64,000 bases of DNA from Candidatus Pacearchaeota archaeon (GTDB lineage: Archaea; Nanobdellota; Nanobdellia; Pacearchaeales; GW2011-AR1), in assembly GCA_050303855.1 (NCBI GenBank), contig JBNLCO010000010.1, positions 158,207 to 222,206 of the forward strand. The letters run 5' to 3'. Below are positions 37,347-37,372 of this stretch, in pieces; position 1 is the first letter of the stretch, and each line of letters opens with the position of its first letter. The position numbers and the translations under genes are program-made. The notes below the pieces were generated by a model. That model was not told the DNA's origin. It did not search any database and was given only the letters and a program-made list of their open reading frames with translations.

Positions 37347-37372
37347 AATAAAATTTTAATTGTTAATAATAC
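37347..37372 (-). promoter_or_regulatory. conserved upstream motif TTTTAATTGTTAATAA (representative copy)
   Basis: Near-identical copies sit immediately 5' of start codons at about 40263, 40866, 45936, 49698, 53852, 56567, 62099, 62881 and 35454. Related TTTATAAACAATT occurs upstream of the plus-strand genes at 3036 and 5206. Confidence 0.5.

What the first reader, a model, noticed from the sequence alone, without database searches (positions are those of the whole stretch)
37347..37372. Recurrent TTTTAATTGTTAATAA-type motif immediately 5' of start codons
Near-identical copies of AAATTTTAATTGTTAATAAT (written on the plus strand) lie 2-12 nt from the ATG of many minus-strand genes. Clear copies are at about 37347, 40263, 40866, 45936, 49698, 53852, 56567, 62099, 62881 and 35454. 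A related TTTATAAACAATT lies upstream of plus-strand genes at 3036 and 5206. On the coding strand the motif reads ATTATTAACAATTAAAATTT. It could be a TATA/BRE promoter for leaderless transcripts, which the spacing fits, or a shared regulator-binding site for a secreted/membrane-protein regulon. Sharing of the motif between core and accessory parts also argues for a single genome.
Basis: seen in the sequence. Interest (0 to 1): 0.5.

Follow-up and report, generated by a model that had tools for sequence, protein, structure and literature searches.

The report
Bacteroidetes-style start-codon leader in an archaeon
A 20-base AT-rich motif just upstream of many start codons in this small (DPANN) archaeal genome is the same ribosome-loading leader that Bacteroidetes bacteria use in place of a Shine-Dalgarno site, and here it precedes a block of Bacteroidetes-like surface-protein genes, a type of start signal an earlier survey did not find in any of 238 archaea.

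Summary
The motif is real. ATTATTAACAATTAAAATTT (coding strand) occurs three times exactly. Twelve matches in total lie 3-8 nt before ATGs of minus-strand genes between 26 and 63 kb, and none in the archaeal core (1-24 kb).

The window is a Pacearchaeota-like DPANN genome. Its core genes carry canonical TATA boxes at -30..-24, as expected for leaderless mRNAs. Genes from 24-64 kb lack these. Their signals anchored to the ATG are A at -12/-11 (91%/83%) and a purine at -3 (94%; T in 1 of 64). These are the positions shown experimentally to drive Shine-Dalgarno-independent initiation in Flavobacterium.

The exact 20-mer occurs in 96 Bacteroidota/FCB genomes. In 81-86 of them it lies 5-11 nt before a real start codon, downstream of the TAnnTTTG promoter box where one is visible, so it is in the 5'UTR.

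The genes that follow are Bacteroidota-like: OmpA, DUF481, signal peptides with glutamine after the cleavage site ("Q-rule"), and lipoproteins. Five related assemblies from other samples show the same layout, so the contig is not chimeric.

Best reading (about 0.5): a transcribed, Bacteroidia-type translation-initiation leader. A TATA/BRE promoter reading fits poorly, and a secretome regulon is not supported. Transcription start mapping is needed to decide.

The parts
37350..37371 (-). Exact motif copy (TATTATTAACAATTAAAATTTT), 3 nt before the ATG of 36279-37346 (solute-binding/ion-channel protein with a signal peptide). It overlaps the stop codon of the upstream gene 37363-38196.
40266..40287 (-). 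Exact motif copy, 5 nt before the ATG of 39001-40260 (lipoprotein with a Peptidase_S74 domain).
53858..53879 (-). Exact motif copy, 6 nt before the ATG of 53420-53851 (143 aa, function unknown).
40871..40892 (-). Motif copy with 2 mismatches (TAGTATTAACAACTAAAATTTT), 5 nt before the ATG of 40365-40865.
45941..45962 (-). Motif copy (TAAGTTTAACAATTAAAAATTT), 5 nt before the ATG of 44865-45935 (NMT1-type substrate-binding protein of the ABC cassette).
49705..49726 (-). Motif copy (TTAAATTAACAATTAAAATTAA), 7 nt before the ATG of 48144-49697 (OmpA-family protein, 517 aa).
56575..56596 (-). Motif copy (AATTATTAACAATTTTTAAAAC), 8 nt before the ATG of 56129-56566. The A-run stays at -13..-10 although the C has moved to -21.
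62105..62126 (-). Motif copy (AAATAATAACAATTTAAAAATT), 6 nt before the ATG of 60851-62098.
62887..62908 (-). Motif copy (GAATATTAACAAATTAAAATTT), 6 nt before the ATG of 62434-62880.
54582..54603 (-). Degenerate copy (TATTATTAATCATTTAAATTTA), 7 nt before the ATG of 53990-54574 (lipoprotein). Not used to build the matrix.
38912..38933 (-). Degenerate copy (TATGTTAAACAAATAAAATTTA), 5 nt before the ATG of 38199-38906 (PspA/IM30, cytoplasmic). Not used to build the matrix.
53971..53992 (-). Copy (TAAAGTTAACAATTAATATTTT), 6 nt before an ATG that opens an ORF of fewer than 20 codons. Its function is unknown.
35445..35466 (-). Weak variant (ATTATTAACAAAAAATTATC) before the 42-codon basic ORF 35313-35441.
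26287..26306 (-). Weak variant (TTTATTAACAAAAATTAAAT) before 25420-26283. It is preceded by a hairpin plus T-run at 26345-26326.

Best explanation
The motif is the strongest form of a Shine-Dalgarno-independent translation-initiation region. It is most likely transcribed as part of a short, unstructured, AT-rich 5' leader (inferred, not shown). An A-run about 10-13 nt before the AUG, a purine at -3 and an A at -6 would help the small ribosomal subunit find the start codon. This is how Bacteroidia mRNAs work.

The motif precedes genes of a hypervariable, co-directional accessory region in a Pacearchaeota-like DPANN archaeon. Those genes look Bacteroidota-derived: OmpA, DUF481, signal peptides with glutamine after the cleavage site (Q-rule), and lipoproteins. 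Housekeeping genes of the same genome use TATA boxes at -27 (leaderless mRNAs), or GGAGG Shine-Dalgarno sites for genes inside operons.

Shown here: the sequence anatomy, the positional statistics, the identity with the Bacteroidota leader, and the archaeal context. Inferred: that the motif is transcribed in this archaeon, and that archaeal ribosomes use it. The role of the 5' half (ATTATTAAC) is unexplained. It could hold the transcription start (the lone C followed by A) or a weak TATA.
For: 1. In 64 accessory genes without a Shine-Dalgarno site (window plus 4 related loci), the only sharp signals anchored on the ATG are A-12 (58/64), A-11 (53/64), purine -3 (60/64; T 1/64) and A-6 (41/64). 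These are the positions shown by reporter assays and ribosome profiling to promote initiation in Flavobacterium johnsoniae (A at -3, -6, -12, -13; A-rich -14..-11; PMC6847099).
2. When the spacing inside the motif varies, the A-run keeps its distance to the ATG (-13..-10 in 7 of 9 copies) while the C moves between -16 and -21 (read).
3. Internal calibration: T at -3 occurs in 14/37 core genes with a TATA box (leaderless, so -3 is not transcribed). It occurs in 3/28 core genes without one and in 1/64 accessory genes (p=1.3e-6).
4. The exact 20-mer is found in 96 FCB-group genomes. In 81 of them (plus 5 with a 29-codon ORF) it lies 5-11 nt before a real start codon, mostly 6-7 nt. Examples include rplU, rpmI, rpsO, dnaK and acpP. 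This holds in only 1 of 9 named non-FCB genomes.
5. In several of these genomes a TAnnTTTG -7 promoter box lies 4-25 nt upstream of the motif, so the motif is in the 5'UTR there.
6. Of 572 neighbouring Bacteroidota genes, 8 carry a copy matching at least 17/20 at the right offset, against 0.05 expected. TAACAA is enriched about 8-fold at -27..-18.
7. The region -25..+20 is almost unstructured: mean folding energy -1.75 against -5.14 kcal/mol for windows inside coding sequence.
8. The motif also precedes operon-internal genes. One copy overlaps the upstream stop codon at 37363. A motif-like A-rich leader lies 27 nt after the hairpin between the substrate-binding and permease genes at 44838-44810.
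9. The same OmpA-VWA-OmpA-TelA-ABC cassette carries A-rich leaders in a Bacteroidota contig and strong AAGGAGG sites in the SM23-78 contig. This shows the start signal can be replaced after transfer.
Against: - No transcription start data exist, so transcription of the motif in the archaeon is inferred.
- Archaea lack ribosomal protein bS1 and the bS21/bS18/bS6 anti-SD sequestration of Bacteroidia, and no mechanism is known by which archaeal ribosomes would read such a leader.
- No promoter was identified for these genes. Canonical TATA heptamers are rare at -55..-24 (8 in 64 genes). The only conserved upstream element is the motif itself, which is what a promoter model would predict.
- Hairpin plus T-run elements abut the motif in several cases, leaving only 22-42 nt to the ATG. 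This favours transcripts that start at or near the ATG.
- Low predicted structure and A/T richness are partly a matter of base composition.
- Gene starts were taken as the first ATG of each ORF and were not verified.
Confidence: 0.5

Rival explanations
1. Archaeal core promoter for leaderless or nearly leaderless mRNAs. The 5' half (A)AATTATTAA at about -29..-20 would act as a non-canonical TATA box. The 3' half AATTAAAATTT would be an AT-rich initially melted region, with transcription starting at or just before the ATG.
For: - Leaderless transcription with a TATA at -30..-24 is the rule in the core genes of this genome and its relatives.
- The AT-rich 5' half of the motif overlaps that position.
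- Some accessory genes have a separate TATA-like box directly upstream of a motif-like block. Examples: 50563-52275 (TTTTTATAAAAG, then AACAAATTAAATTTT), and 56822-57388 and 60460-60759 (CTTAA(A)TTTAG, then TAATTAA...).
- Hairpin plus T-run elements leave only 22-42 nt before several ATGs.
- No other promoter is visible.
- The core gene at 3060 has its TATA followed by the same AACAATTA.
Against: - The best-conserved positions (-22..-7, and -3) lie outside the TATA/BRE window, and no specific pattern appears at -30..-23.
- A is preferred over T at -12/-11 (58 vs 5) on one strand only. DNA melting would not require that.
- The purine at -3, with T excluded, has no promoter explanation. Position -4 is not pyrimidine-rich, so -3 is unlikely to be the transcription start.
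- The best TATA-like string in the motif (TTAAAATTT at -15..-7) would direct starts inside the ORF.
- The identical 20-mer at the same offset is transcribed leader in Bacteroidota.
- The Shine-Dalgarno-led accessory genes, which must have leaders, lack canonical TATA heptamers just as much.
Confidence: 0.2
2. Binding site (operator) for one transcription factor that co-regulates a secreted or membrane-protein regulon. It would sit between TATA and the transcription start, as archaeal repressor sites often do.
For: - The 20-nt conservation includes a lone C and an imperfect TTAA-N3-TTAA inverted repeat (read from the sequence).
- The motif is confined to one class of genes.
Against: - There is no enrichment for signal peptides among motif genes compared with other accessory genes (p=0.48).
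- The underlying signal (A-12/A-11, purine -3) is present in about 90% of 64 accessory genes across five loci. That is too general for a single regulon.
- The same sequence precedes ribosomal-protein, chaperone and lipoprotein genes in about 90 unrelated Bacteroidota genomes.
Confidence: 0.08
3. Non-functional relic. The genes were transferred from Bacteroidota together with their leaders, and the motif is inherited sequence with no role in the archaeon.
For: - The gene content is Bacteroidota-type, and the closest homologue of the OmpA cassette that carries a taxon label is annotated as Bacteroidales.
- The signal peptides are Bacteroidota-like.
Against: - The signal is much stronger here than in Bacteroidota themselves: A-12 91% against about 51%, purine -3 94% against about 65%.
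- Near-perfect motif copies are far more frequent here: about 30% of accessory genes against about 1.4% of Bacteroidota genes.
- Protein identity to the nearest Bacteroidota homologue is only about 49%, so neutral leaders should have decayed by now.
- The Bacteroidota -7 promoter box has not been kept.
- The signal is conserved in relatives whose RpoD is only 51-74% identical.
Confidence: 0.1
4. Assembly artefact. The contig is a chimera of an archaeal genome and a Bacteroidota genome, and the motif simply belongs to the bacterial half.
For: - The motif, the signal peptides and the protein domains of 24-64 kb are all bacterial in style.
- Contigs assembled independently (by Logan) from the same sequencing run break at 24157 and 24388, near the junction.
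Against: - Five assemblies of related archaea from other samples (L116, L117, L118, L120, L121/L122) also show rpoD followed directly by a minus-strand array of the same kind of genes.
- One accessory gene (26365-27093) has homologues in the equivalent region of L116 and L118.
- Tetranucleotide correlation between 1-24 kb and 24-64 kb is 0.981, higher than either part against any low-GC Bacteroidota locus (at most 0.957).
- The accessory region contains GGAGG-led genes, which Bacteroidia avoid.
- The Logan contigs are short throughout, so a break near the junction is not special.
Confidence: 0.03

Closest known systems
Bacteroidia (Bacteroidetes) Shine-Dalgarno-independent translation-initiation region. 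This is the 'group B non-SD RBS' of GeneMarkS-2, and the upstream adenines described by Baez et al. 2019.
   Same: - A-run at -14..-10, A or purine at -3, A at -6, no GGAGG, and low predicted RNA structure.
- The same 20-mer at the same 5-8 nt spacing from the ATG in 81-86 of 96 FCB genomes.
- It precedes both first and internal genes of operons.
   Different: - The host is an archaeon. GeneMarkS-2 placed 0 of 238 archaea in group B (PMC6028130).
- bS1 and anti-SD sequestration by bS21/bS18/bS6 cannot apply (from general knowledge of archaeal ribosomes).
- GGAGG-led and leaderless genes coexist in the same genome.
- The signal is much sharper here, and the extended 20-nt consensus with TTAACAA at about -22 was not found in the literature searched.
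Archaeal TATA/BRE promoters of leaderless mRNAs (GeneMarkS-2 group D).
   Same: The motif is AT-rich, locked to the ATG, and sits in an organism whose core genes clearly use this architecture, with TATA at -30..-24.
   Different: The conserved block is 8-15 nt too close to the ATG. The profile shows no T-run-then-A-run TATA pattern at -30..-23. The strand-specific A-12/A-11 and the purine at -3 are not promoter features (promoter geometry from PMC7289017 and PMC6028130).
Kozak-type context in AT-rich eukaryotes (AAAAAAAUG, purine at -3).
   Same: Purine at -3 with pyrimidines excluded, and an A-rich upstream context. Baez et al. draw the same parallel.
   Different: There is no cap-dependent scanning in archaea. 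The additional fixed A-run at -13..-10 and the TTAACAA element have no eukaryotic counterpart.
Initiation on leadered mRNAs without a Shine-Dalgarno site in Haloferax volcanii
   Same: It shows that archaeal ribosomes can initiate on 5'UTRs that lack a Shine-Dalgarno sequence.
   Different: No defined sequence motif has been described there. Those genomes are GC-rich and have no Bacteroidota connection.

Membership tests
Bacteroidia-type SD-independent TIR (group B non-SD RBS) | Adenine enrichment at about -14..-11 relative to the start codon | tested here: met
   A-12 58/64, A-11 53/64, A-13 41/64, A-10 44/64 in accessory genes without a Shine-Dalgarno site. Reference positions from PMC6847099.
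Bacteroidia-type SD-independent TIR (group B non-SD RBS) | A (or purine) at -3 and A at -6 | tested here: met
   -3: A 44, G 16, C 3, T 1 of 64. -6: A 41 of 64.
Bacteroidia-type SD-independent TIR (group B non-SD RBS) | No Shine-Dalgarno sequence upstream of the genes that carry it | tested here: met
   64 of 76 accessory genes have no GGAG/GAGG/AGGA/GGGG at -18..-4, and motif copies contain no G.
Bacteroidia-type SD-independent TIR (group B non-SD RBS) | The motif lies in the transcribed 5'UTR | not testable with these tools
   In Bacteroidota loci the TAnnTTTG -7 box lies upstream of the motif. For the archaeal genes no transcription start data are available.
Bacteroidia-type SD-independent TIR (group B non-SD RBS) | The same motif type precedes essentially all genes of the genome, and Shine-Dalgarno sites are avoided genome-wide | tested here: not met
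   Core genes use TATA/leaderless starts or GGAGG. 12 of 76 accessory genes are Shine-Dalgarno-led. No motif occurs in 25 core genes.
Bacteroidia-type SD-independent TIR (group B non-SD RBS) | Host is a member of the FCB group, with the anti-SD sequestered by bS21/bS18/bS6 | tested here: not met
   The window encodes L21e, RpoF, RpoD, DUF655 and archaeal-type SecDF. RpoD relatives are labelled Pacearchaeota/Nanoarchaeota.
Archaeal TATA/BRE core promoter (leaderless) | A 7-8 bp TATA box centred about 26 nt upstream of the start (which equals the ATG for leaderless mRNAs) | tested here: not met
   The canonical heptamer peaks at -30..-24 in core genes (20 hits in 65 genes) but gives only 4 hits in 64 accessory genes. 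The conserved block of the motif is at -22..-7. A non-canonical TATA in the 5' half cannot be excluded.
Archaeal TATA/BRE core promoter (leaderless) | A-rich BRE immediately upstream of the TATA box | tested here: inconclusive
   Positions -36..-30 show no information beyond AT richness.
Transcription-factor operator / regulon | Restricted to a functionally coherent gene set | tested here: not met
   Signal peptides: 7 of 11 motif genes against 13 of 29 other accessory genes, p=0.48. PspA and cytoplasmic proteins are included.
Repeat or mobile element (MITE, REP) | Similarity extends beyond the core, or terminal inverted repeats are present | tested here: not met
   Family D7 is 22 nt long and the flanks are unrelated.
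Known structured RNA family (Rfam) | Match at the gathering threshold | tested here: not met
   Only the 5S rRNA and three tRNAs are found in the window.

The most novel reading that the evidence does not exclude
A clade of Pacearchaeota-like DPANN archaea maintains, next to its rpoD ribosomal-protein cluster, a hypervariable secretome built from Bacteroidota-type parts. These parts include signal peptides with glutamine after the cleavage site (Q-rule), acidic lipoprotein export signals, OmpA, DUF481, BACON and T9SS C-terminal domains. The genes are expressed through a Bacteroidia-type, Shine-Dalgarno-independent leader that archaeal ribosomes have come to use.

This would be the first archaeal case of a 'group B' start signal. 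It would also point to sustained gene flow from, and possibly a physical association with, Bacteroidota hosts. No bacterial host is established for any DPANN archaeon, as far as I know.
Probability: 0.3. Interest if true: 0.8.

Novelty: new variant of a known kind. Interest (0 to 1): 0.6.

Why it matters
Three start-codon selection systems appear to coexist in one small archaeal genome: leaderless/TATA, Shine-Dalgarno, and a Bacteroidia-like A-rich leader. The third is tied to genes that look imported from Bacteroidota.

If the leader is transcribed and used, the upstream-adenine/purine -3 mechanism does not depend on the bacterial protein bS1 or on Bacteroidia-specific ribosome features. That bears directly on the open question of how mRNAs without a Shine-Dalgarno site are recognised in bacteria and archaea.

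The finding also gives a concrete sequence marker for tracing gene flow between Bacteroidota and DPANN archaea, and for asking whether these archaea live on bacterial hosts.

Separately, the extended 20-nt consensus, with TTAACAA at about -22, is a sharply defined element in Bacteroidota themselves. It is present as a near-perfect copy in about 1.4% of the genes sampled, and its role there seems undescribed.

Tried and rejected
- **Bacteroidota contig:** my first guess, from the OmpA domains and MKK signal peptides. Rejected once L21e, RpoF, RpoD, DUF655 and archaeal SecD were found.
- **Giant virus or Thaumarchaeota:** considered from GC content alone and dropped.
- **Chimeric assembly:** tested with tetranucleotide composition, the independently assembled Logan contigs and five related assemblies, and rejected.
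- **TTAAAATTT as the TATA box:** rejected because transcripts would start inside ORFs whose signal peptides begin at the annotated ATG.
- **Bacteroidota -7 boxes (TAHHTTTG) upstream of motif genes:** none found in a consistent position.
- **Sigma-70-like promoters:** not enriched, 68 and 74 found against 74 and 77 expected.
- **Canonical TATA at -55..-31, to support a leader of fixed length:** not found.
- **Transcription start at the purine at -3:** not supported, because position -4 is not pyrimidine-rich.
- **Look-ups of the window proteins 36279-37346 and P0001:** returned nothing.
- **Homologue search for the DUF481 protein:** gave only one distant hit and no taxonomic information.
- **Metagenome scan with RpoD:** gave only 6 loci.
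- **Literature search for the motif string:** found nothing relevant.
- **Literature searches for DPANN promoters or bacterial hosts of DPANN:** found nothing specific.
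Full report
**Observation**

The motif is real. On the coding (minus) strand it reads ATTATTAACAATTAAAATTT.
- Three exact 20-mers lie at 37351-37370, 40267-40286 and 53859-53878. Five copies fall within 3 mismatches, against 0.23 expected.
- A matrix built from nine copies finds 14 sites of at least 12 bits, against 3.6 in Markov simulations. Twelve are on the minus strand with an ATG 3-8 nt downstream. Three of those twelve were not used to build the matrix.
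- The similarity spans only 20-22 nt (family D7) and does not continue into the coding regions. The downstream genes are unrelated to each other. So it is an independent short signal, not a duplicated gene start or a mobile element.
- No Rfam family matches it.

**What the window is**

Positions 1-24 kb carry archaeal core genes: L21e, RpoF/Rpb4, DUF655, S13, S4, S11, RpoD, archaeal-type SecD/SecF, a lone 5S rRNA and three tRNAs. RpoD homologues that carry names are labelled Pacearchaeota, Nanoarchaeota or Diapherotrites, and the nearest is 74% identical. The organism is therefore a DPANN archaeon. All looked-up proteins sit on one 268,280-bp NCBI contig.

Positions 24-64 kb form a co-directional minus-strand array with a bacterial flavour:
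- two OmpA-family proteins, a DUF481 outer-membrane-type protein, PspA, TelA and VWA;
- an ABC transporter, an AAA ATPase, a major-vault-protein-like protein and a Peptidase_S74 lipoprotein;
- N-termini that look like Bacteroidota signal peptides ending ...FAQ...SAQ or ...FSQ, and lipoboxes such as ISGC, IAGC, ILGC.

Glutamine at +1 after signal peptidase I cleavage is described as a Bacteroidetes-specific rule (PMC5837995).

The cassette OmpA570-VWA-OmpA517-289aa-TelA-SBP-permease-ATPase-AAA (40.9-52.3 kb) is syntenic in two other places. One is a bacterial contig with TonB_C and CarboxypepD_reg neighbours (about 49% identity; a close homologue is annotated as Bacteroidales). The other is a contig deposited as Euryarchaeota archaeon SM23-78 (43% identity).

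**Is the contig a chimera?**

No.
- Tetranucleotide profiles of 1-24 kb and 24-64 kb correlate at 0.981. Neither part exceeds 0.957 against any low-GC Bacteroidota locus.
- Five assemblies of related archaea from other samples show the same core block. They comprise two ENA assemblies, one NCBI MAG and JGI contigs from three metagenomes, with RpoD 51-74% identical. Where upstream sequence is present the order is SecDF ... L21e-RpoF-DUF655-S13-S4-S11-RpoD. In every one rpoD is followed within 100-330 nt by a minus-strand array of MK(K/T) signal-peptide genes.
- These arrays again show AQ/SQ cleavage sites and SC/AC lipoboxes followed by acidic residues. One protein has BACON and Por_Secre_tail domains.
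- One accessory gene (26365-27093) has 35-36% identical homologues in the equivalent place in two relatives.
- Otherwise the arrays share no genes, so the region is hypervariable.

**Two kinds of gene start in one genome**

Core genes that head transcription units have a canonical TATA box (TTTTATAA, TTTTAAAAA, TTTTTTAAAG) whose 7-mer centre falls at -30..-24 of the ATG. There are 20 hits in 65 core genes and almost none elsewhere. This is the geometry of leaderless archaeal mRNAs, with the promoter box about 26 nt from the start (PMC6028130; PMC7289017). Genes inside core operons use GGAGG.

They are not copies of the motif.

Accessory genes differ. Only 4 of 64 genes without a Shine-Dalgarno site have a canonical TATA heptamer at -30..-24, and only 4 have one anywhere in -55..-31. 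Aligned on the ATG, these 64 genes (window plus four related loci) show sharp information peaks at only a few positions:
- A-12: 58/64
- A-11: 53/64
- purine at -3: A 44, G 16, C 3, T 1
- weaker signals: T-15/-14, A-13/-10, A-6, T-23/-22, and C at -18/-19

The full 20-mer is the extreme, most complete version of this profile. When the internal spacing of motif copies varies, the A-run stays at -13..-10 while the C wanders from -16 to -21. What is anchored to the start codon is therefore the A-run and the base at -3.

**Link to Bacteroidota**

Scanning one genome per species for the exact 20-mer gave 109 loci, none of them archaeal.
- 96 are from the FCB group: Bacteroidales, Flavobacteriales, Chitinophagales, Saprospiraceae, Ignavibacteria and Chlorobiota.
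- In 81 of those 96 (86 if a conserved 29-codon ORF is counted), the 20-mer ends 5-11 nt before an ATG that opens a real gene. The spacing is mostly 6 or 7 nt.
- The genes include rplU, rpmI, rpsO, dnaK, acpP, thioredoxin and many lipoproteins.
- Among nine loci from named non-FCB bacteria this holds once.
- Several copies lie 4-25 nt downstream of a TAnnTTTG -7 promoter box, so the motif is transcribed leader there.
- Among 572 neighbouring Bacteroidota genes, 8 carry a match of at least 17/20 at the right offset, against 0.05 expected from a position-independent model and 0 at a control offset. Three of these eight upstream sequences are near-identical, so about six are independent.
- TAACAA is enriched roughly 8-fold at -27..-18.

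With a 6-7 nt spacer the AAAA of the motif falls at -14..-10. Ribosome profiling and reporter mutagenesis in Flavobacterium johnsoniae showed that A at -3, -6, -12 and -13, within an A-rich tract at -14..-11, promote initiation without Shine-Dalgarno pairing (PMC6847099). GeneMarkS-2 finds this A-rich non-SD motif in 90% of Bacteroidetes/Chlorobi genomes and in none of 238 archaea (PMC6028130).

**Mechanism: leader or promoter?**

The leader (translation) model is favoured for these reasons:
- The anchored positions are exactly the functional Bacteroidia positions.
- The preference is strand-specific (A 58 against T 5 at -12), which DNA melting would not need.
- T at -3 separates genes whose -3 is not transcribed (core TATA genes, 14/37) from core genes without a TATA (3/28) and from accessory genes (1/64, p=1.3e-6).
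- G is rare throughout the leader but reaches 25% at -3.
- The region -25..+20 is nearly unstructured, -1.75 against -5.14 kcal/mol.
- The motif also serves genes inside operons. One copy overlaps the stop codon of 37363-38196. A motif-like A-rich leader lies 27 nt after the hairpin between the substrate-binding and permease genes.
- The same cassette has strong AAGGAGG sites in SM23-78 and A-rich leaders in the Bacteroidota contig, so start signals get remodelled after transfer.
- Here the Bacteroidota -7 promoter boxes have been lost, while the leader signal is sharper than in Bacteroidota themselves: A-12 91% against about 51%. That argues for selection in the archaeal lineage and against a passive relic.

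The promoter model keeps real weight:
- No other promoter is visible.
- The AT-rich 5' half lies where a TATA box should be.
- A few genes show a separate TATA-like box directly upstream of a motif-like block.
- Hairpin plus T-run elements sometimes leave only 22-42 nt before the ATG.
- However, the Shine-Dalgarno-led accessory genes must have leaders, and they lack canonical TATA heptamers just as much. So the missing TATA does not argue specifically for leaderless transcripts.

I put the leader model at about 0.5, the leaderless promoter at about 0.2, a relic at 0.1, a single-factor operator at 0.08 and a chimera at 0.03. The remainder covers dual-use or unknown functions.

**Regulon idea**

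Motif-bearing genes are not enriched for signal peptides compared with other accessory genes (7/11 against 13/29, p=0.48). PspA and other cytoplasmic proteins carry the motif. The association is with the accessory region as a whole (12/40 genes against 0/25 core genes, p=0.002), not with secretion.

**Comparison with known systems and novelty**

The motif works like the Bacteroidia Shine-Dalgarno-independent initiation region and meets its sequence-level criteria. It fails two membership criteria: genome-wide use and an FCB host. It is therefore best described as a new variant of a known kind, a Bacteroidia-type leader operating (or at least maintained) in a DPANN archaeon alongside leaderless and Shine-Dalgarno starts.

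The extended consensus, with TTAACAA at about -22, did not turn up in the literature searched. Its function is unexplained even in Bacteroidota.

**Limits**

- There are no transcription or translation data.
- Gene starts were taken as the first ATG of each ORF.
- Relatives were sampled only around rpoD.
- The taxonomy of L111 and SM23-78 rests on neighbouring domains and deposited names.
- The motif matrix was trained on window copies.

Noticed in passing
window 40993-52275 (minus strand); L111 7403-18468; L112 7376-16578: A nine-gene cassette (OmpA570, VWA, OmpA517, 289-aa protein, TelA, NMT1-type binding protein, permease, ABC ATPase, AAA ATPase) keeps its gene order in three places: this DPANN contig, a Bacteroidota-type contig, and the contig deposited as Euryarchaeota archaeon SM23-78 (which has all but the AAA ATPase). 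Each has a different start-signal style: the motif here, degenerate A-rich leaders in the Bacteroidota contig, and strong AAGGAGG sites in SM23-78.
   Followed up: partly
window 24412-62880; L116 10792-20431; L118 10840-19660; L120 785-4575; L122 2040-4685: The accessory proteins have Bacteroidota-style export signals. Cleavage sites expose glutamine (FAQ, SAQ, FSQ, KAQ), and lipoboxes are followed by acidic residues (SCEKED, ACDED, ACETTSDTED). L118 14139-16505 has BACON and Por_Secre_tail (T9SS) domains. None of this is expected in an archaeon with no outer membrane.
   Followed up: partly
window 57426-57476, 58390-58440, 60792-60842 (also 57993-58013): A 51-nt intergenic repeat lies immediately after three different stop codons. 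On the minus strand it reads ...CACGGGCAAGGCTATGATGCGCTTGCGGTTT(T)CTT. It is followed by a TATA-like CTTAA(A)TTTAG or CTTTTAATTG and the next gene. It may be a terminator-promoter module or a small RNA.
   Followed up: no
window 58349-58386, 59790-59827, 62382-62419, about 60279-60310: A second family of upstream regions reads TAATAATTAAA(T)TATAGGAGATTTTTATT-ATG and has a conserved GGAG Shine-Dalgarno site. It sits in front of small membrane proteins. The same design occurs in L116 and L120. At 60310 a TTAACAAATTAAAAT block lies directly upstream of the Shine-Dalgarno site.
   Followed up: partly
window 5206-5284: The TATA box TTTATAAA at 5206 lies 28 nt before an ATG at 5234. That ATG opens a 16-codon ORF (MRFIIFLNKVLIAGKR) whose TGA stop overlaps the ATG of the sugar-nucleotide gene at 5281 (ATGA). 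This may be a leaderless upstream ORF translationally coupled to the main gene.
   Followed up: no
window 30699-33302: An 867-aa protein has major-vault-protein shoulder and repeat domains (MVP_shoulder, Vault_3). It is rare in prokaryotes and is encoded here in a DPANN genome.
   Followed up: no
window 34159-34889: Four tandem copies of a 174-nt unit (62-100% identical) lie inside ORF 33436-35106, so the protein contains 58-residue repeats.
   Followed up: no
window 17330-17417: An 88-nt tRNA is found by Rfam, but ARAGORN cannot assign an anticodon to it. It probably contains an intron or is otherwise atypical. The 5S rRNA at 19150-19265 stands alone, away from any 16S/23S genes.
   Followed up: no
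window 35313-35441; L116 18372-18470: A small basic ORF (42 aa, MAKTKKRK...YLGRSK) preceded by a weak motif copy resembles a 32-aa ORF in the relative (...YLGTSK). It may be a conserved micro-protein.
   Followed up: no
L002-L110 (Bacteroidota loci): Within Bacteroidota themselves, TAACAA is enriched about 8-fold at -27..-18, and about 1.4% of the genes sampled carry a near-perfect ATTATTAAC(A/G)ATTAAAATTT. This extended element goes beyond the known A-rich tract, and I found no description or explanation of it.
   Followed up: partly
window 24157 and 24388: Contigs assembled independently (Logan) from SRR36185838 are 100% identical to the window. They break at 24157 and resume at 24388, inside ORF 24110-24394 at the boundary between core and accessory parts. 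This may reflect strain variation at the edge of the hypervariable region.
   Followed up: partly
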